A stretch of DNA of 42,294 nucleotides from a virus (lineage: Duplodnaviria; Heunggongvirae; Uroviricota; Caudoviricetes), in the IMG/VR virus record IMGVR_UViG_3300003310_000099, positions 1 to 42,294 of that record; one strand, 5' to 3'. Of this stretch, positions 4,881 to 31,445 are shown one piece after another (within the stretch, counting starts at the first letter, position 1; each line of letters opens with the position of its first letter). The notes under the pieces are model-generated. The model was not told the origin of the DNA, did no database searches, and saw only the letters and a list, made by a program, of their open reading frames with translations. The position numbers were made by a program, and so were the translations under genes.

Positions 4881-5089
4881 TATACTGCGTTACTACAGTT
4901 GGTCGCCAGGTAGAAGGCGAAATGGTTTCAATTAGATTTGAGAAGGCTTATAAATCCAAGGCCAAGGCTGAGGCATTTTCCAAGGACTTGGCCAAGGTTT
5001 ATACAGAAAACGTGAATACTCCTACTGGACCTGTTCAATTTGTCTTAGAAAGAGGTGTGCAGGAGGTGGAGTTTGATGAAAATGAGTAA
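4862..5089 (+). CDS. hypothetical protein
   Basis: ORF in operon; start could be ATG 4874. Confidence 0.6.
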   Translation: MAKDMLIYCVTTVGRQVEGEMVSIRFEKAYKSKAKAEAFSKDLAKVYTENVNTPTGPVQFVLERGVQEVEFDENE

Positions 5090-5847: not shown

Positions 5848-6171
5848 ATGGACGATGAAGTTTTAGATATATTAAACAGAATCCAGTGTTGCGTAGATGA
5901 TTGTGAACTTCGTGTTAAATTGGGTTTAATTCCACTCGGTAGTTCAAAAAGAATGATCTTCAGAGGCACTTATGATGTGTTAGAACATGCGGGTGATGGT
6001 GCCATTTATAACAAGATCATGAATGATAAGCTCAATAAGGTTCGAGACTTAGGTTTTATAATTAATGAGTCTGGTCAAAATAATTGGCGTGAGGAAGAGA
6101 ATTGGAGCATCACAGGTGCTGGCCAAATCTATCTTGGCAGTGTTAGAGGGAAGATACGTCATGAATCTTAA
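5848..6171 (+). CDS. hypothetical protein
   Basis: 107-aa ORF in operon. Confidence 0.6.
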   Translation: MDDEVLDILNRIQCCVDDCELRVKLGLIPLGSSKRMIFRGTYDVLEHAGDGAIYNKIMNDKLNKVRDLGFIINESGQNNWREEENWSITGAGQIYLGSVRGKIRHES

Positions 6172-24404: not shown

Positions 24405-24524
24405 GGCCAAGTAGCTAAAGAAGATCGCTTTGGTGACTCAGACAAGTGATTGTCTCCAACCCTGAAGCTTACAAGCAATAGTCAGTAAAACTAGAGAATG
24501 TTGGTGCAAATCCAACCTTGGCCG
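24405..24524 (+). ncRNA. module 1 (type B): tRNA-like RNA with Y-like module inserted in the D-loop
   Basis: acceptor GGCCAAG/CTTGGCC; D-stem GCT/AGC; insert GACTCAGACA-agtgat-TGTCTCCAA...GCTTACAAGC; anticodon loop CAGTAAA (GTA, non-canonical A33); T-arm GTTGG-TGCAAAT-CCAAC. Confidence 0.8.
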
Positions 24525-24530
24525 CTAGTA

Positions 24531-24600
24531 GCGTCCCCTAAAGGAAGAACTTACAAACAACAAGGTTATGTTTAAATGATAGTTCTTTAAACTTGGACGC
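24531..24600 (+). ncRNA. module 2 (type A): minimal Y-RNA-like RNA
   Basis: GCGTCC/GGACGC terminal helix, GAAGAAC/GTTCTTT inner helix, TTACAAAC, followed by a T-run. Confidence 0.8.
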
Positions 24601-24611
24601 AACTTTTTTTC

Positions 24612-24660
24612 AAAAAGAACTTGACAAACCTTAAAGACAGTAGTATGATAGGTAAGTCAG
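24612..24660 (+). promoter_or_regulatory. repeated promoter cassette copy 2
   Basis: TTGACA-N17-TATGAT within the same repeat. Confidence 0.8.
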
Positions 24661-24662
24661 GT

Positions 24663-24705
24663 GAGTGGAAGTCCTTAAAGAATGATTATGGACTATGCCA
24701 CACAA
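24663..24705 (+). repeat. 43-nt hairpin repeat copy 1
   Basis: GAGTGGAAGTCCTTAAAGAATGATTATGGACTATGCCACACAA; second copy at 25434. Confidence 0.8.
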
Positions 24706-24757
24706 GGATGGGAAAAGTGCTGAAGACTGTCGTTAGGCAGCGTTCAAGCACAACGCT

Positions 24758-24881
24758 GGGGGATAAAGAAAGCTTTGATGACTTGGACAAGAAATTGTCC
24801 CCAACGGTTTGAGCTTACAAACTTTAAGGTAAAGAAAAGACTTTTAATCTTTTTAAGTGGGTTCAACTCCCACATCCTCCA
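24758..24881 (+). ncRNA. module 3 (type B): tRNA-Lys(TTT) with Y-like module inserted between acceptor stem and D-arm
   Basis: GGGGGAT/ATCCTCC; insert GACTTGGACAA-gaaa-TTGTCCCCAA...GCTTACAAAC; D-arm CTTT-AAGGT-AAAG; AAAGA-CTTTTAA-TCTTT; GTGGG-TTCAACT-CCCAC. Confidence 0.8.
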
Positions 24882-24953
24882 CTAAGGCTTATCACTGAGC
24901 CTGGATTTTGTGTGACGGTCGCCTAGACCCAGAGCAAAACGATCAGTGAACAC

Positions 24954-25064
24954 GGGGTTTAAAAAGGCTTGGAGAACTTAGACAGGAAACTGTCTCCCAC
25001 TTTTTAAGCTTACATACTGGAAAGCAAGGAAACTTGCAAGTTGGTTCGAGTCCAACAAACCCCG
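24954..25064 (+). ncRNA. module 4 (type B): anticodon-less tRNA-like RNA with Y-like insert
   Basis: GGGGTTT/AAACCCC; AACTTAGACAG-gaaa-CTGTCTCCC...GCTTACATAC; GCAAG-GAAA-CTTGC replaces the anticodon arm; GTTGG-TTCGAGT-CCAAC. Confidence 0.8.
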
Positions 25065-25068
25065 CTAA

Positions 25069-25201
25069 CTGTCTCCTATGTTGGGAACTTACAAACATCA
25101 AGTGGGTTCGACTCCCATCAGCAGTTCGCTGCTGTAGCCTAACGGTCAGGCAACTGGCTTTTAACCAGTCTTAAAAAGACGAGTTTTCATGACTTAGACA
25201 G
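25069..25201 (+). ncRNA. module 5 (type A): Y-like stem enclosing a circularly permuted tRNA-Lys(TTT) (YrlA-like order)
   Basis: CTGTCT/AGACAG ends; inside: T-arm GTGGG-TTCGACT-CCCAT, acceptor CAGCAG-TTCG-CTGCTG, D-arm GCCT-AACGGTC-AGGC, ACTGG-CTTTTAA-CCAGT. Confidence 0.85.
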
Positions 25202-25209
25202 TTAATTTT

Positions 25210-25342
25210 GCCAAGGTAGTCTAAAAAACTATTAGTTACAGTGACTTAGACAAGTAATTGTCTCCAATGGTTGTAACTTACAAACAGGTAAGACGTTATC
25301 CTCATAAGGTAAAGTTTGTTGGTTCAAATCCAACCCTTGGCA
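25210..25342 (+). ncRNA. module 6 (type B): tRNA(CAT) with Y-like module inserted in the D-loop
   Basis: GCCAAGG/CCTTGGC; D-stem GTCT/AGAC; insert GTTACA-GTGACTTAGACAA-gtaa-TTGTCTCCAA-tggt-TGTAAC-TTACAAAC; TTATC-CTCATAA-GGTAA; GTTGG-TTCAAAT-CCAAC. Confidence 0.85.
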
Positions 25343-25380
25343 CTGAAAGATTCTTCTTGACAAATAAGAAAACTTTTTTC

Positions 25381-25429
25381 AAAAAGAACTTGACAAACCT
25401 TGAAAACGATGGTAAGATAGGTGAGTCAG
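25381..25429 (+). promoter_or_regulatory. repeated promoter cassette copy 3
   Basis: TTGACA(25390)-N17-TAAGAT. Confidence 0.8.
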
Positions 25430-25433
25430 ATAC

Positions 25434-25476
25434 GAGTGGAAGTCCTTAAAGAATGATTAGGGATTATGCCACACAA
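25434..25476 (+). repeat. 43-nt hairpin repeat copy 2
   Basis: differs from 24663..24705 at two positions. Confidence 0.8.
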
Positions 25477-25503
25477 AGAAGAAAAAGATAGTAGAATGAG
25501 GTT

Positions 25504-25568
25504 GTGGGAGTAGCTCAATGGAGAGCGCCAGTATACTGGAGACGTTGGTTCAAACCCAATCTTCCGCT
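25504..25568 (+). ncRNA. tRNA-like RNA lacking an anticodon loop
   Basis: GTGGGAG/CTTCCGC; GCTC-AATGGA-GAGC; CCAG-TATA-CTGG (4-nt loop); GTTGG-TTCAAAC-CCAAT. Confidence 0.7.
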
Positions 25569-25570
25569 TT

Positions 25571-25697
25571 TGTCTGTCACCGATGTTGAGAACTTACATA
25601 CAATTAGCTCAGTAGATGAGCGTAACTAAGCAGAAGTTAAGGACGTGGGTGCGAATCCCACATTGTTAAAAATCAGTTTTCATGACTTGGACAGACA
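25571..25697 (+). ncRNA. module 7 (type A): Y-like stem enclosing a degenerate tRNA
   Basis: TGTCTGTC/GACAGACA; GAGAAC/GTTTTC; ACTTACATAC; GCTC-AGTAGAT-GAGC; TAACT-AAGCAGA-AGTTA; GTGGG-TGCGAAT-CCCAC; T-run follows. Confidence 0.8.
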
Positions 25698-25716
25698 TTT
25701 TTTTTATATATTGACG

Positions 25717-26208
25717 ATGGGTGTGGATAAAAAGTTTGAGCAGTTAGGTTGTAATTTAGGAAGTGCCGCAATCAAATTGAGAAAGTTAGTTCTTTTTGAT
25801 TTGATTGTTAAGTTTGGTCTAAATAAATGTTATCGGTGCGGTAAAGTGATTGATGCTGTCGATGACTTTACTTTAGATCACAAGATTGATTGGTTAGACT
25901 CGGCTAATCCTGAAGAGTTGTTTTTTGATGTTTCTAATGTAGCTTTTAGTCATGCTCTTTGCAATACATTGGCTAGACGAACGCCAAATAAGGTTAGAGG
26001 TAAAGTAGGTTTTAAGGGTGTTTATTTTGATTCGGGGAGAAAAAAACCTTATAAGGCAGAGTTAGAAACTAAAATCAACGGTGAAAAGAAAGTCTACAGG
26101 TTAGGTAGATTTGGTACAGCAGAAGAAGCAGCTTTGGCTTATGATTTGAAAGCCAAAGAAATTTTAGGAAATCGAGCTATATCAAATCATGATATGGGCT
26201 TGATATGA
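25717..26208 (+). mobile_element. HNH-AP2 (homing-type) endonuclease CDS inserted in the RNA array
   Basis: CYRCG...LDHK...N...SHALCN (HNH with Zn site) followed by GFKGVYFD...RLGRFGTAEEAALAYD (AP2). Confidence 0.85.
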
Positions 26209-26273
26209 GGGGCGGTAGCTTAGCGTTTAAAGCATTAGTCTTATAGACTAAAGATCGAATCCATCCCGCCCCA
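26209..26273 (+). pseudogene. degenerate tRNA (TAT loop) missing the 5' strand of the T-stem
   Basis: GGGGCGG/CCGCCCC; GCTT/AAGC; TTAGT-CTTATAG-ACTAA; then only AGATCGAATCCATC. Confidence 0.65.
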
Positions 26274-26276
26274 CTA

Positions 26277-26607
26277 CACTGTTTCCAACCTTTGGAGCTT
26301 ACAAACTTTGGAGGTTCTAAGGTAGCGAGTTTGCTTGGTTTACGACTTACCCATAGTGGTAAGTGGAGCTTCCAAGCAGCGAATCCAGGTGTAATCGCAA
26401 GATTGCTAATGGATAGTAAGGTGTGAACCTTTCCCGCGATTTCACGGTCAGTCTTCTACGGAAGCCTGAAAAGGTGGTCGAGAGTTAACATAATAGTTGA
26501 CTCACTTGGCGAAAGCCAAGGGCCGATTGGCTTGAGTGTAAACGGATGGGCAACCATCACGCACGACCACAAATAATTGCTCTTATGCTCTGGAAACTTA
26601 GACAGTG
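26277..26607 (+). ncRNA. module 8 (type A): Y-like stem enclosing a ~280-nt structured RNA
   Basis: CACTGTTT/AGACAGTG; GGAGC/GCTCT; CTTACAAAC; internal GNRA hairpins; T-run follows. Confidence 0.75.
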
Positions 26608-26653
26608 TTATTTTTTTAGCTATAGCCCAAGAAAATTGGGTAAGCATAGATCA

Positions 26654-26709
26654 GTTGTCAAAACTTAGAAGGCTCGCCCAACCTTCTCCCATGCGGACAA
26701 CTTACAAAC
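26654..26709 (+). ncRNA. module 9 (type B hairpin, no tRNA flanks recognised)
   Basis: GTTGTC/GACAAC; ACTTAGAAGG...CCTTCTCCC (compensated P1); TTACAAAC. Confidence 0.7.
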
Positions 26710-26786
26710 CAACAAAGATTTAACCTTGGAGAACGAACATGAAGATGGACTATGGTTGACGTAGCAGCTTAGGGTTAGACCCATTT

Positions 26787-26837
26787 GCTGCTAAAACTTA
26801 GACAGGAAACTGTCTCCAAACATAGTAGCTTACAAAC
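26787..26837 (+). ncRNA. module 10 (type B hairpin)
   Basis: GCTGCTA/TAGTAGC; ACTTAGACAG-gaaa-CTGTCTCC; TTACAAAC. Confidence 0.75.
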
Positions 26838-26923
26838 TTGAAGAATAAATCTTAAATTAGGAGTTAACACCATGCGAAAGATGGATAGCGGTTAATCTTG
26901 AAAGTTATCGGGAGTAATTCCCA

Positions 26924-26974
26924 GCTGCTAAAACTTGGATGCGAAAGCGTCCCCAAACTTAGAAGCCTACAAAC
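26924..26974 (+). ncRNA. module 11 (type B hairpin)
   Basis: GCTGCTA...ACTTGGATGC-gaaa-GCGTCCCC...TAGAAGC-CTACAAAC; isolated T-arm GTTGG-TTCAAAT-CCAAC at 27053-27069. Confidence 0.7.
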
Positions 26975-27079
26975 TTTTTAAAGATGCCAAGTGCAAATTG
27001 TTAGAAAAATGCCCATGTAATGTACAATGAGGCGTGAAAAGGTAGTAATGAAGTTGGTTCAAATCCAACACGCGCTAAT

Positions 27080-27200
27080 TTCCGTCCCCTACAAGGTTAG
27101 TTTACAAACATAGCTCATTAGTAGAGCGCAACCATTAGAAGGTTGAAGTAATTGGTGCGAATCCAATTGTTTCTCGATAGCTGACTAAACTTGGACGGAA
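27080..27200 (+). ncRNA. module 12 (type A): Y-like stem enclosing a degenerate tRNA
   Basis: TTCCGTCC/GGACGGAA; TTTACAAAC; GCTC-ATTAGTA-GAGC; CAACC-ATTAGAA-GGTTG; ATTGG-TGCGAAT-CCAAT; 5-bp acceptor AAACA/TGTTT. Confidence 0.8.
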
Positions 27201-27204
27201 CAAT

Positions 27205-27276
27205 GTCGGTGTAGCCAAGCGGTAAGGCATCAGTCTGCAAAGCTGATTACCGTAGGTTCGAATCCTACCGCCGACT
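27205..27276 (+). tRNA. tRNA-Cys(GCA)
   Basis: canonical cloverleaf GTCGGTG/CGCCGAC, TCAGT-CTGCAAA-GCTGA, GTAGG-TTCGAAT-CCTAC, U73 discriminator; CCA not encoded. Confidence 0.92.
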
Positions 27277-27289
27277 TTAAGGTAATATA

Positions 27290-27493
27290 ATGTTAATCTG
27301 CGATAATGGGAATAAGTGTGGGAAGGGTAAAGTGCCATCATGCACTAACCAAGCCATACATATTATCCATACCGTAGATGACAAAGGCAATATAATAGAA
27401 GGGCCAGTCATCAATTTGTGTGATGAACATTTTGATGTGGCAATGCGGTTGGGACTTGTTACTGAGCCGTATATGGGATACGAAGTAACTTGA
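27290..27493 (+). CDS. small hypothetical protein (Cys/His)
   Basis: 67-aa ORF after tRNA-Cys. Confidence 0.45.
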   Translation: MLICDNGNKCGKGKVPSCTNQAIHIIHTVDDKGNIIEGPVINLCDEHFDVAMRLGLVTEPYMGYEVT

Positions 27494-27517
27494 CAATGCG
27501 GAAAATTGTGGTATAGT
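27490..27517 (+). promoter_or_regulatory. sigma70-type promoter for the Ubl-like gene
   Basis: TTGACA-N16-TATAGT. Confidence 0.7.
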
Positions 27518-27550
27518 AAGAGTGGAGACGACAAAGAGGAGGAAGGGAAA

Positions 27551-27784
27551 ATGGAAAATCAAGTAATTGACGCAGTACCTCAGATTCACATTCGCTACGA
27601 CGGTCGTAGCATTGACATTCCTTTGAGCGAAGTAGACGTTGGTGTTCTGTCTACGGACGAACAGATTCGTGCTGCTGTCGCTGAGAACCTTGGTGTGCCA
27701 GTCGGAAAGCTTCGCGCTTTCGCCATCGACCGCAACCAAGAGACGAATCACCTGACCCTTCGTCCAGAAGCGGTTTGGGGTTGA
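27551..27784 (+). CDS. putative ubiquitin-like (beta-grasp) small protein ending in Gly (...LRPEAVWG)
   Basis: 77 aa from ATG 27551 with purine-rich SD; beta-beta-alpha-beta-beta pattern (IHIRY-SIDIP-helix DEQIRAAVAENL-FAID-LTLR); C-terminal Gly. Confidence 0.6.
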   Translation: MENQVIDAVPQIHIRYDGRSIDIPLSEVDVGVLSTDEQIRAAVAENLGVPVGKLRAFAIDRNQETNHLTLRPEAVWG

Positions 27785-27870
27785 AATTTTTGATCCCCAG
27801 GCATGGGGCTGACTTGGTGGGGAGTTATGAAAAGAATTGCCAAGTGATAATTAGGAACCATGCCAAATTT

Positions 27871-28001
27871 GCGGGAGTAGCTGAATAGTAAATAGTTTTT
27901 TATACTTAGACGGGCTAAACTCCGTCTCCGACTTGAAAAACTTACAAACAAGCGTCAGTATTCTAAACTGAAGTATGTGGGTGCGACTCCCACCTCCCGC
28001 T
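27871..28001 (+). ncRNA. module 13 (type B): tRNA-Arg(TCT)-like RNA with Y-like module in the D-loop
   Basis: GCGGGAG/CTCCCGC; GCT/AGC; AGTTTTT/AAAAACT; ACTTAGACGG...CCGTCTCC; CTTACAAAC; TCAGT-ATTCTAA-ACTGA; GTGGG-TGCGACT-CCCAC. Confidence 0.8.
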
Positions 28002-28002
28002 C

Positions 28003-28186
28003 TTTTTCCTGATAGTGCCAGCACCGACCCCGAAATGTTACCAAACAGGGGTGGTAAACGGCGGGTAACACCGCTAGTCCCTTTGACCGCTCAAGAGTTG
28101 GCTGATTACTCTTCGGAGGAAAAACAGCTTTTGGGCAACAACCCTGTTCCTCAACATAAAGTGTTGGGGTGGCCGTTCAGGAAAAA
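28003..28186 (+). ncRNA. unidentified structured RNA
   Basis: 10-bp closing stem TTTTTCCTGA/TCAGGAAAAA; hairpins; TGTTAC/GTAACA loop-loop complementarity. Confidence 0.55.
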
Positions 28187-28187
28187 T

Positions 28188-28254
28188 TCCGTCTCCTAAA
28201 AAGGAAGCTTACAAACTAGCCAATGTTTAACACAGCTTCCTAAACTAAGACGGA
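28188..28254 (+). ncRNA. module 14 (type A): minimal Y-RNA-like RNA
   Basis: TCCGTCT/AGACGGA; AGGAAGCT/AGCTTCCT; CTTACAAAC; T-rich tail. Confidence 0.8.
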
Positions 28255-28277
28255 TTTATTTTTATTTTAAGTGACTT

Positions 28278-28405
28278 GTTTTGTCCCCAATGTTGAGAAC
28301 TTACAAACAATTTGCTCAACGGTAGAGCATCAACCTCCAAAGTTGAAAGTGTTGGTTCAAATCCAGCATTGTTTACCAAAACAGTTTTCAAGACTTGGAC
28401 GAAAC
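28278..28405 (+). ncRNA. module 15 (type A): Y-like stem enclosing an intact tRNA-Trp
   Basis: GTTTTGTCC/GGACGAAAC; GAGAAC/GTTTTC; ACTTACAAAC overlaps the tRNA 5' end. Confidence 0.85.
28305..28378 (+). tRNA. tRNA-Trp(CCA) with encoded CCA end, nested in module 15
   Basis: AAACAAT/ATTGTTT-A-CCA; GCTC-AACGGTA-GAGC; TCAAC-CTCCAAA-GTTGA; GTTGG-TTCAAAT-CCAGC. Confidence 0.8.
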
Positions 28406-28409
28406 GAGA

Positions 28410-28501
28410 TGGCTAGTAGCTTAACGGTAAAGCACTTGCTAAGTCGGGCGTTAAAACCTGACCTGTAAGAAGAAGTAGGGTTCAACTCCCTGCCTGGCCA
28501 C
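28410..28501 (+). ncRNA. tRNA-like RNA with extended anticodon arm
   Basis: TGGCTAG/CTGGCCA; GCTT-AACGGTA-AAGC; CTTGC/GTAAG plus internal loop plus GTCGGG-CGTTAAAA-CCTGAC; TAGGG-TTCAACT-CCCTG. Confidence 0.7.
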
Positions 28502-28503
28502 TT

Positions 28504-28574
28504 TCTGTCCCCTATAGGTAAAACTTACAAACATTACCAATGACGATGCTAAAAGTTTTACAAACTTGGACAGA
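28504..28574 (+). ncRNA. module 16 (type A): minimal Y-RNA-like RNA
   Basis: TCTGTCC/GGACAGA; GTAAAACT/AGTTTTAC; CTTACAAAC. Confidence 0.8.
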
Positions 28575-28592
28575 CTAATATTCAAGAAAATT

Positions 28593-28660
28593 TCCGTCCC
28601 CTATAAGAAGAACTTACAAACACTCAATTATCGTTTAACAGTTCTTTTGACTTGGACGGA
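28593..28660 (+). ncRNA. module 17 (type A): minimal Y-RNA-like RNA
   Basis: TCCGTCC/GGACGGA; GAAGAAC/GTTCTTT; CTTACAAAC; T-run follows. Confidence 0.8.
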
Positions 28661-28680: not shown

Positions 28681-28708
28681 TTGACAGACGCCAAATTTGT
28701 AGTATCAT
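28681..28708 (+). promoter_or_regulatory. sigma70-type promoter for the TROVE gene
   Basis: TTGACA-N16-TATCAT. Confidence 0.7.
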
Positions 28709-28825
28709 GTATGAGTGACAGAAAATGCGAAATATGCAATGAGCCAGCATCATGTTGGTATTATTGCAGTGAGCATCATAGAAGTATTTGTGTAGATGGT
28801 AATAGTCCAAGAGAAGTGAGAGAAA

Positions 28826-28850
28826 AACTAGGACAGGAAACTGTCCCCAA
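28826..28850 (+). promoter_or_regulatory. P1-type hairpin of the array module adjacent to the TROVE SD
   Basis: AACTAGGACAG-gaaa-CTGTCCCCAA then c-AAGGAG-N8-ATG. Confidence 0.7.
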
Positions 28851-28865
28851 CAAGGAGAATTGAAA

Positions 28866-30368
28866 ATGGCTAATACTGAAATTGATACCCGTCTCAACAT
28901 CCTTAACACCCTGTTGACCACTCCTCACTGTAAGCTGGATCAGGTTTACCCGATTCACGCTGAGATGATTAAGCAAGACCCGTTATTCTACGGTCGTTTG
29001 GGTGCATGGTACAATGACACTGGTGACGTTCGTGACCACAAGGAAATGTTCGTCATCAACATGTGCCTGAGTGACTTTGAAGGCCACCGTGACGCTGGAT
29101 TGGCAATGCTGCGTGAAATGCCACCGTACCAGCTTGGCCGTGTCGTAGACTTCATCCACGGTCGTAAGGACACTAAGAAGTCCAAGGCCAAGAAGGGTGA
29201 AACTCCAACCACGACGGTTGAAAACTACGGTTTGTTCAAGAACATTCCGCGTTCCGTCAAGACGGAAGTGGTTCGTTATCTCCGTGAACGTGAAGCGGAA
29301 CCAGAGTGGTTCGATTCTTGCGCCGTCACTGCGCGTAAGTATTTGAAGCGTCTCTATGCTCTCATGCACATTAGCCCAAATGAGCGTGCGCAGAAGATTC
29401 TCTTTGAAGATTTGCCGCCAGAAGATTCCAAGCTGTTCGCAGTGAAGGAACTCTTCAAGGCGAAGACGCCAGCGGAACAGGCCAAGACGATCATGGCGCA
29501 CAAGATTCCGTACCGTATCGCTTCGACGGTCGTTTCTGCCATGACTCCGACCGTACTCTTGGCTTTGATTGAAGTTATGTCGGATATGGAGTTAATCAAT
29601 AACCTTGGTTCTCTCCGTAAGCGTGGTGCATTTGAGAATCCAGACCTCAAGGCACTCATTGAGAAGAAGCTTGAGAAGGCCAAGTCTGGTAAGCGTGTTT
29701 CGGCACTCAAGGCAACTGAAGCCGTTAAGTCGGCTGGTGTTGATGATGCTACGGTCAAGCAACTGGAAGCGGTTGCTGACTCGCAGTTGAAGAAGAAGGG
29801 CCGTATCAATCGCTCTACTGCACTGCTGATTGATAAGTCTGGCTCCATGAGTCAGGCTATCGAATTGGGCAAGCAGATTGGTTCGATGATTTCTGCTATC
29901 ATGGATGCAGATTTGTATGTATACGCTTTCGACACGATGGCGTATCCCCTCAAGGCACAGGGCACCGACCTTGCTTCCTGGGACAAGGCATTGCGTGGTA
30001 TCAACGCTGGGGGTGGAACCTCTTGCGGTGTGCCTCTTGAGTACATGATTCGCAACAAGCAGCTTGCGGAGAACATTATCGTCATCACGGACGAAGGCGA
30101 AAACGGTACTCCTGCATTCGTGCCGACCCTGAAGAAGTACATGGCTGAACTCAAGGCAACCCCTTCTGTCTGCTTTGTAAAGACTACGGGTGCATCGAAT
30201 CAGCTTGAACAGCAGATGCAGCGTGAAGGACTGAACTGTGACGCCTGGCAGTTCAGTGGGGATTACTACAGTCTGCCCAACTTGATCCCCTACCTGTCCA
30301 AGCCATCGAAGGTCGATCTTCTGATGGAAATCATGTGTTACGAAATGCCTGTCCGCAAGACGGCATAA
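28866..30368 (+). CDS. Ro60-like TROVE + vWA domain RNA-binding protein
   Basis: N-terminal helical region (QDPLFYGRL...DVRDHKE; MSDMELINNLGSL resembling the Ro60 MPxxALLRNLG motif) and C-terminal vWA MIDAS (LLIDKSGSM, GGGTSCG, VITDEGEN); SD AAGGAG; biased codon usage (CGT, AAG). Confidence 0.75.
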   Translation: MANTEIDTRLNILNTLLTTPHCKLDQVYPIHAEMIKQDPLFYGRLGAWYNDTGDVRDHKEMFVINMCLSDFEGHRDAGLAMLREMPPYQLGRVVDFIHGRKDTKKSKAKKGETPTTTVENYGLFKNIPRSVKTEVVRYLREREAEPEWFDSCAVTARKYLKRLYALMHISPNERAQKILFEDLPPEDSKLFAVKELFKAKTPAEQAKTIMAHKIPYRIASTVVSAMTPTVLLALIEVMSDMELINNLGSLRKRGAFENPDLKALIEKKLEKAKSGKRVSALKATEAVKSAGVDDATVKQLEAVADSQLKKKGRINRSTALLIDKSGSMSQAIELGKQIGSMISAIMDADLYVYAFDTMAYPLKAQGTDLASWDKALRGINAGGGTSCGVPLEYMIRNKQLAENIIVITDEGENGTPAFVPTLKKYMAELKATPSVCFVKTTGASNQLEQQMQREGLNCDAWQFSGDYYSLPNLIPYLSKPSKVDLLMEIMCYEMPVRKTA

Positions 30369-30971: not shown

Positions 30972-31445
30972 ATGAAAATGACCAAGACTATTCAACTATT
31001 AGAAGACCAGTTGAAAGGCATAAGAAGATCATCCATCAGTCCTGGTTTTATCGAAACCTTGAAAGTTCCTTACTACGGGCAGATGACTCCCATTCGTTTT
31101 GTGGGGACCGTAGGCAGGTGTCAGGCTGGCATTACTATAACACCGCATGACCCGAACTTGGTGAACAGTATTGCTAAGTCGTTACAAGAGGATAATTTGC
31201 TGAACGCTTATGCGTTCTCAAAAACAACAGTTGTGGTAAGTGTCCCACCTGCTAACACAGGTGAGATTGAAAGAATAAAGTCGCATATCAGGAAATTAGG
31301 CGAAGATGCCAAGATTTCTATCAGGAATTTAAGGAAAAGTGTAAGACAAAATTTGTCCAAGGAAGAACAAAAAGAAATAGATAAGGATTTGCAACTTTTG
31401 ACAGAGGAACATTGCAATAAAATTGAGGATATTATCAATGACTAA
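30972..31445 (+). CDS. frr: ribosome recycling factor homolog
   Basis: LKGIRRSSISPGFIETLKVPYYG...VSVPP...AKISIRNLR...LQLLTEEH pattern of RRF. Confidence 0.85.
   Translation: MKMTKTIQLLEDQLKGIRRSSISPGFIETLKVPYYGQMTPIRFVGTVGRCQAGITITPHDPNLVNSIAKSLQEDNLLNAYAFSKTTVVVSVPPANTGEIERIKSHIRKLGEDAKISIRNLRKSVRQNLSKEEQKEIDKDLQLLTEEHCNKIEDIIND

What the first reader, a model, noticed from the sequence alone, without database searches (positions are those of the whole stretch)
28826..28868. Module P1 hairpin abuts the Shine-Dalgarno of the TROVE gene (autoregulation?)
AACTAGGACAG-GAAA-CTGTCCCCAA nearly duplicates the P1 hairpin of modules 4 and 10 (AACTTAGACAG-GAAA-CTGTCTCC) but lacks P2 and TTACAAAC. It ends 1 nt before AAGGAG and lies within the transcript from the promoter at 28681. 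Inference: the protein binds its own leader and represses translation when array RNAs do not titrate it. This placement independently supports P1 as the protein's binding site.
Basis: partly seen in the sequence, partly recalled or inferred. Interest (0 to 1): 0.72.

Follow-up and report, generated by a model that had tools for sequence, protein, structure and literature searches.

The report
Y-RNA handle beside Ro60 ribosome site
A huge bacteriophage keeps a stripped-down copy of the handle found on its own small partner RNAs right in front of the ribosome-binding site of its Ro60-like gene; related phages keep it there too, so the protein probably limits its own synthesis, though nobody has tested this.

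Summary
Confirmed. The 6-bp GNRA hairpin (28831-28846) with unpaired flanks copies helix P1 of the upstream Y-RNA-like array. It occurs only in that array and here in the 373-kb phage genome. The gene (28866-30368) has no Pfam TROVE hit but folds like Ro60 over its full length. All are fully paired, with compensatory changes and unconserved flanks. All are followed by a Shine-Dalgarno (SD) sequence where array copies have P2/TTACAAAC. Two near-identical relatives place the same helix in the opposite topology, fused to the SD. Best reading (about 0.55): free Ro binds the leader and blocks initiation, and array RNAs titrate it, as in ribosomal-protein feedback. Binding and repression are inferred, not shown. 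Caveats: several array-bearing relatives lack the element; leader stems resemble their own genome's array stems; here a small Cys/His ORF reads through the hairpin. I found no paper on Ro60 autoregulation. This scan noted the same arrangement before on other genomes (AI notes, not independent evidence).

The parts
28827..28850 (+). Leader element: P1-only copy of the Y-like module handle (ACU-N flank, 6-bp stem, GNRA loop, CCAA tail); putative Ro operator
28852..28857 (+). Shine-Dalgarno AAGGAG, 5 nt after the stem, where array modules carry the linker and P2
   Evidence: sequence; 14/14 leaders followed by an SD, 2/123 other hairpin matches, mostly array copies
28866..30368 (+). Divergent Ro60/Rsr-like gene, 500 aa, helical ring plus vWA domain; single copy in the genome
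28681..28708 (+). sigma70-type promoter (TTGACA, 16 nt, TATCAT); inferred start about 28715
   Evidence: start inferred from 10 leaderless-looking ORFs that begin 5-8 nt after such -10 boxes in this genome; in L001, L179, L180, L185 the promoter lies 9-21 nt before the hairpin
28711..28863 (+). Small Cys/His ORF (50 aa) between promoter and Ro gene in this sub-lineage; its frame crosses the hairpin and SD and stops 2 nt before the Ro ATG; expression doubtful (ATG 2 nt after the -10, no SD)
24405..28660 (+). Array of Y-RNA-like modules with the same handle, 7 detected in hairpin topology and the rest with 5' and 3' ends paired; proposed titrating RNAs
24976..24999 (+).
26796..26819 (+).

Best explanation
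The hairpin is a translational operator. The Ro60-like protein recognises helix P1 and its unpaired flanks on the array RNAs (inferred). The 5' leader of its own mRNA carries the same handle without P2 or cargo (shown). In the hairpin topology the strand that corresponds to the Ro-contacted GUC-C strand of Y RNAs is the 3' arm, which runs straight into the SD (shown; the correspondence is by resemblance). When Ro exceeds the array RNAs, free protein binds the leader and sterically hinders 30S loading; when array RNAs are in excess they sequester it and translation resumes (inferred). The result is Ro synthesis matched to its RNA partners, as for ribosomal-protein repressors and rRNA.
For: 14 loci carry it 17-27 nt before the ATG, stem to SD 5-13 nt. 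All 84 stem cells pair; positions 4-6 vary among CG/UG/UA, GC/AU and GC/CG/AU/UA. On 9 distinct rows: 100% paired, 8 double changes, 0/500 shuffles as high, slid registers 28-50% paired. Arms are 78-79% identical between loci, the 20 nt upstream 31%. SD follows 14/14 leader copies and TTACAAAC 0/14, against 2/123 and 102/123 for the other hairpin matches. In 223 kb of clade loci the only other P1-only hairpins are one displaced by an HNH insertion and one stand-alone copy. L186 and L006 have a TTACAAAC-less mini module in the opposite topology whose 3' strand is fused to the SD. The protein's 13 best structural matches are all Ro60. Chen et al. (PMC4201824) state that Ro60 mainly contacts the GGUCCGA strand.
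Against: No binding or expression data. At least four array-bearing relatives (L009, L023, L074, L022 group) lack any leader copy, so it is dispensable. In L002 an HNH gene separates it from the Ro gene. The SD is strong, and for bS1 and bL25 a strong SD abolishes autogenous repression (PMC10931766). In four loci the SD is 12-13 nt from the stem. The leader lacks P2, so the internal loop of the array site is incomplete and affinity is unknown. In this genome the Cys/His ORF, if translated, would clear the hairpin. Covariation is partly shared with the array and the 14 loci are related (10 lie in one clade).
Confidence: 0.55

Rival explanations
1. Ro binds the leader, but the feedback acts on mRNA stability: the handle makes the mRNA behave like a Y RNA and brings Ro with a ribonuclease such as PNPase to its own message.
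For: Y RNA tethers Rsr to PNPase in Deinococcus and Salmonella (PMC4201824). The element sits near the 5' end of the mRNA in most loci.
Against: A decay tag need not stay within 5-13 nt of the SD, yet it does in 14/14 and is fused to the SD in L186/L006. The leader lacks the second domain that engages PNPase in Y RNAs.
Confidence: 0.13
2. Ro binds the leader with a positive or neutral effect: it protects the 5' end, opens the SD, or captures the nascent protein for particle assembly.
For: In some loci the pyrimidine tail can pair weakly with the SD (SD unpaired probability 0.00-0.31 in L185, L008, L003), and binding of the tail could free it.
Against: This pairing is not conserved (0.57-0.74 in the window, L001, L177, L183, L004). 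Positive feedback with a titrating array has no obvious use.
Confidence: 0.1
3. The hairpin is a protein-independent or processing element: a 5' stabilising hairpin, or the cut site that separates the array RNAs from the coding part of a long transcript, recognised by the same factor that matures the modules.
For: It shares the motif that bounds many array RNAs; 5' hairpins commonly stabilise mRNA (general knowledge).
Against: A generic stabiliser would not keep the exact GGA/UCC core and the unpaired ACU and YCNA letters. A promoter lies just upstream in at least five loci, so no cut is needed to make the mRNA.
Confidence: 0.12
4. It is a non-functional relic of the last array module, kept similar by copying from the array.
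For: Leader stems are closer to own-genome array stems than to others (2.75 against 3.58 mismatches, p about 0.003; identical in 4 loci). It is absent in several relatives.
Against: Kinship alone would also give that resemblance. Flanks are near random identity while arms are 78% conserved; P2/TTACAAAC is lost cleanly in all 14; position relative to the SD is fixed; no other relics occur genome-wide.
Confidence: 0.06
5. It is a DNA-level palindrome (operator for a DNA-binding regulator) or a terminator for antisense transcription.
For: It is an inverted repeat downstream of a promoter, and it is called as a minus-strand terminator-like site in this window.
Against: In 87 array copies G-U pairs outnumber A-C 34 to 2, 73/87 loops are GNRA, and 10/10 four-base leader loops are GNRA, which points to the plus-strand RNA. 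Spacer and stem length vary. The A-run needed for an antisense terminator falls to 1-4 of 9 nt in most loci. The same helix also forms between distant ends in the other topology.
Confidence: 0.04

Closest known systems
Autogenous translational control by molecular mimicry in bacterial ribosomal proteins (uS8, uL1, uS15, bL20; bL25 operator hairpin preceding the RBS; PMC10931766)
   Same: An RNA-binding protein's own leader carries a reduced copy of its site on an abundant structural RNA, next to the ribosome-binding site.
   Different: The protein has the Ro60 fold, the competing RNAs are a phage array of Y/tRNA-like modules, and repression is untested here.
Ro60/Rsr with Y RNAs (YrlA RF02553, YrlB, Yrn1; PMC4201824) and Thermus phage phiLo Ro60 with Yrl1/Yrl2 (PDB 9KOP, 9L5Y; PMC12135203)
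   Same: Ro60 ring-plus-vWA fold; structured, partly tRNA-like RNAs upstream on the same strand; a GUC/GAC helix next to an internal loop.
   Different: The motif is GUCY-CCNA, not GNCGAAN(0-1)G; the helix also occurs closed as a hairpin; a cargo-free copy lies in the mRNA leader. The passages of these two papers that I read describe no leader copy or autoregulation.
CsrA/RsmA with CsrB/RsmZ, and MS2 coat protein with its operator hairpin (own knowledge, not checked here)
   Same: A protein bound to a hairpin beside the SD blocks initiation; for CsrA, multi-copy RNAs titrate it.
   Different: Unrelated proteins; no GGA-loop motif; no other target genes with this hairpin in the genome, so it is not a regulon.

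Membership tests
Ro60/Rsr protein family | Helical TROVE ring plus C-terminal vWA domain over the full length | tested here: met
   AlphaFold model pLDDT 81; Foldseek top 13 all Ro60, E 1e-11 to 4e-8, TM 0.55-0.66; phmmer to phiLo Ro60 E 4e-5
Ro60/Rsr protein family | Pfam TROVE (PF05731) or vWA_Ro60 at gathering score | tested here: not met
   No TROVE hit in 40 members; vWA_Ro60 22.4 bits against cut-off 27.7 for the query: a divergent subfamily
Ro60/Rsr protein family | Binds Y RNA | not testable with these tools
   No protein-RNA assay or complex prediction offered
Y RNA Ro-binding site (YrlA/YrlB/Yrn1) | GNCGAAN(0-1)G motif | tested here: not met
   Tail after the stem is CCAA/CCUA/CCGA/CCCA in the array and mostly CCAA in leaders; motif definition
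Y RNA Ro-binding site (YrlA/YrlB/Yrn1) | GUC-containing helix next to conserved unpaired bases | tested here: met
   Core GA/UC pairs and flanking ACU in all matches by the search anchor; unanchored tail C-C-N-A in 81-83 of 87 array copies per position
Y RNA (as a gene) | Free-standing 80-130 nt RNA with paired ends and a second domain; Rfam YrlA match | tested here: not met
   The leader element is 24 nt, has no P2 or cargo and no Rfam match; the only YrlA hit is sub-threshold and in the array at 25102-25151
Autogenous translational operator | Lies in the leader of the binding protein's own mRNA, beside the RBS | tested here: met
   14 loci, 17-27 nt before the ATG, promoter upstream where detectable
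Autogenous translational operator | Mimics the protein's site on its primary RNA target | tested here: inconclusive
   Mimicry of the array's conserved handle is shown; that this handle is the protein's site is inferred
Autogenous translational operator | Protein binding represses translation and the primary RNA relieves it | not testable with these tools

The most novel reading that the evidence does not exclude
A Ro60-family protein acts as a sequence-specific translational repressor of its own mRNA, recognises its RNA handle in either topology without the rest of the Y RNA, and uses the multi-copy Y/tRNA-like array as a titrating sink. Ro synthesis would then report how many intact partner RNAs are present, for example after host tRNA nucleases cut them.
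Probability: 0.4. Interest if true: 0.72.

Novelty: new variant of a known kind. Interest (0 to 1): 0.55.

Why it matters
In the papers I could search, Ro60 proteins act in RNA quality control and in tethering nucleases; I found no report of one controlling its own translation. A 24-nt natural element gives a minimal, testable definition of the binding site of this divergent, Planctomycete- and huge-phage-associated Ro subfamily. It also offers a simple reporter for which array RNAs bind the protein, and possibly a compact protein-responsive translation switch.

Tried and rejected
(1) My first idea, that the array hairpins are only junctions between adjacent modules, was wrong: P2 encloses them and TTACAAAC follows. 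(2) A DNA pattern scan of viral contigs gave 8 hits; 7 are not before Ro-like genes, the three contigs checked lack an array, and the count is near my rough estimate of 3-4 chance hits, so I treated them as chance. (3) Anti-SD switch: no conserved pairing of the hairpin with the SD. (4) Antisense terminator and DNA operator: rejected. (5) Regulon: no P1-only hairpin before any other gene in the genome. (6) Rfam: no family matches the leader, even at E up to 10. (8) MAFFT misplaced a stem column for loops of unequal length, so tool-based pair counts use the 10 tetraloop copies and all 14 were counted by script. (9) The filter dropped three true leader copies (L001, L178, L182), which are listed. 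(10) Paper searches for Ro60/Rsr autoregulation found nothing relevant; the Sim et al. 2020 review and Burroughs and Aravind 2016 are not held, so the novelty check is incomplete. (11) High-GC, mostly cellular homologues: none has the leader hairpin and almost none any hairpin-topology module; a module 3' strand lies 20-59 nt before the start codon in 34 of 117, but I had no null for this and do not count it as support.

Full report
Observation. The window is the first 42 kb of a 373,404-base virus record, 98% complete. The stem is the only firm structure in the 56-nt fragment (z -2.3) and the SD is not paired to it. A promoter-like site with 11 of 12 matches lies at 28681-28708. With its CC tail the motif occurs 8 times in the genome, 7 in the array at 24.4-28.7 kb and once here; simulated genomes gave 0-1.

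The gene. The ORF encodes 500 aa. Pfam gives only sub-threshold vWA hits and no TROVE hit in any of 40 aligned members. The predicted structure (pLDDT 81) matches Ro60 over its full length: the 13 best PDB matches are human, Xenopus, Deinococcus and Thermus-phage Ro60, TM 0.55-0.66. It is a divergent Ro60 subfamily, with at least 2,737 homologues; the closest cellular ones are mostly in Planctomycetota. A Planctomycete host is an inference from that.

The array. Modules share helix P1 (GUCY paired with RGAC), unpaired ACU-N and CCNA, a variable helix P2 and TTACAAAC. Some pair their 5' and 3' ends around a tRNA-like or small cargo (z -3.2 to -5.5). Others close P1 as a hairpin inside P2. In 87 hairpin-type array copies found without requiring pairing at the variable positions, G-U pairs outnumber A-C 34 to 2 and 73 loops are GNRA, so selection acts on the plus-strand RNA. 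The leader element is a hairpin-type module cut down to P1 and its flanks, with the SD where the linker and P2 would be.

I collected about 185 loci. Fourteen carry the hairpin 17-27 nt before the Ro start codon: the window, L001, L181, L177, L178, L182, L184, L003, L179, L183, L180, L004, L008 and L185. Their proteins are 63-94% identical to each other, mean 72%. Several lie on contigs of 150-600 kb. All 84 cells of the first six pairs are standard pairs; pairs 1-3 are invariant (and partly fixed by my search pattern) and pairs 4-6 covary. On the nine distinct tetraloop rows, 100% of cells pair, 8 cells show double changes, no shuffle of 500 reaches this, and slid registers pair at 28-50% (that control ignores kinship). 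The arms are 78-79% identical between loci, the 20 nt upstream 31%. An SD follows 14 of 14 leader copies and TTACAAAC none; for the other hairpin matches, mostly array copies, the figures are 2 and 102 of 123. In L001, L179, L180 and L185 the -10 box is 9-21 nt upstream, so the hairpin is near the start of a short leader. In L186 and L006, which form one lineage, a TTACAAAC-less mini module in the paired-ends topology ends directly in the SD. That is one further arrangement with the same outcome.

Limits. Ten of the 14 lie in one supported clade (99/96), the rest in an unresolved part of the tree, and array-bearing relatives such as L009, L023, L074 and the L022 group have no leader copy. In L002 (90% identical) the hairpin is kept but an HNH gene lies between it and the Ro gene. 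Leader stems resemble their own genome's array stems more than others (p about 0.003); this may be kinship or recopying, and it means the covariation is not wholly independent of the array. In this window, L002 and partly L181, a 50-codon Cys/His ORF lies between promoter and Ro gene. It has 12 homologues at E up to 0.001, one of them the L002 copy, and its frame runs through the hairpin and stops 2 nt before the Ro ATG. Its ATG is 2 nt after the -10 box, whereas ten other ORFs in this genome start 5-8 nt after such boxes, so it probably lies outside the mRNA from this promoter and it has no SD. Its translation is doubtful but not excluded.

Mechanism. Shown: the copy, its position, its conservation as RNA structure, the loss of P2 and TTACAAAC, and the Ro60 fold. 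From the literature: Ro60 mainly contacts the GGUCCGA strand of Y RNA and may not need the helix (PMC4201824); phage Ro60 binds upstream Y-like RNAs (PMC12135203); ribosomal proteins repress their own mRNAs through mimics of their rRNA sites (PMC10931766). Inferred: the GUCC-CCAA arm is the counterpart of that strand, so protein bound there would sit against the SD and hinder 30S loading, and the array would titrate it. I put this at 0.55. Ro binding with another outcome (decay 0.13, positive or neutral 0.10), a processing or stabilising role (0.12), a relic (0.06) and a DNA-level or antisense element (0.04) make up the rest. The same review notes that a strong SD abolishes repression by bS1 and bL25, which counts against simple competition here.

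Comparison and novelty. It works like an autogenous operator by mimicry. It is not a Y RNA gene and lacks the GNCGAAN(0-1)G motif. No Rfam family matches it. Five paper searches found no report of Ro60/Rsr autoregulation, but two key papers were not available. This scan has noted the same arrangement on at least five other genomes; those are AI notes that I did not check and do not count as evidence. Verdict: real, conserved, probably regulatory; a new variant of a known kind; interest 0.55.

Noticed in passing
window 28711-28863; L002 3997-4200; L181 4846-4944: Small Cys/His-rich ORF with 12 homologues in the representative library, inserted between the promoter and the Ro gene in one sub-lineage; start codon probably upstream of the transcription start.
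   Followed up: partly
window 28735-28768: A long imperfect hairpin (about 15 bp) inside that ORF, near the 5' end of the predicted leader; arms unchanged in L002. Role unknown.
   Followed up: no
L002 4113-4995: An HNH-like gene is inserted immediately after the leader hairpin, separating it from the Ro gene's SD.
   Followed up: partly
L186 about 4955-5000; L006 about 1752-1796: Minimal module (P1 plus short P2, no TTACAAAC) in paired-ends topology fused to the SD of the Ro gene.
   Followed up: partly
L009 3202-3225: Stand-alone P1-only hairpin between two promoter-like sites at the head of the array, with no SD after it.
   Followed up: no
L177, L182, L184, L003 (24-34 nt before the hairpin); also L009, L185: Motif YTGTAC(C/T)A where other loci have a TTGACA-type promoter; possibly a second promoter class.
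   Followed up: no
genome G000, e.g. window 18514, 21961, 39235: Ten ORFs begin 5-8 nt after the -10 box of sigma70-type promoters, which suggests frequent leaderless mRNAs.
   Followed up: partly
window 27551-27784; L177-L186 downstream of the Ro gene: A 77-aa protein ending in a PEAVxG motif lies inside the array; in most relatives Prok-JAB and ThiF genes follow the Ro gene within 6 kb.
   Followed up: partly
window 25717-26208 and 30972-31445: An HNH-AP2 homing endonuclease gene inside the array, and a ribosome recycling factor gene downstream of the Ro gene.
   Followed up: no
Planctomycete loci such as L091, L083, L029, L037, L123: Cellular homologues are preceded by related modules (paired-ends type only, variant core such as GUAC/GUAC), often ending 20-60 nt before the start codon.
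   Followed up: partly
L175 about 5880-5950: A distant homologue (42%) has a GGGACG/CGTCCC stem overlapping an alternative longer hairpin just before its SD; could be a switch.
   Followed up: no
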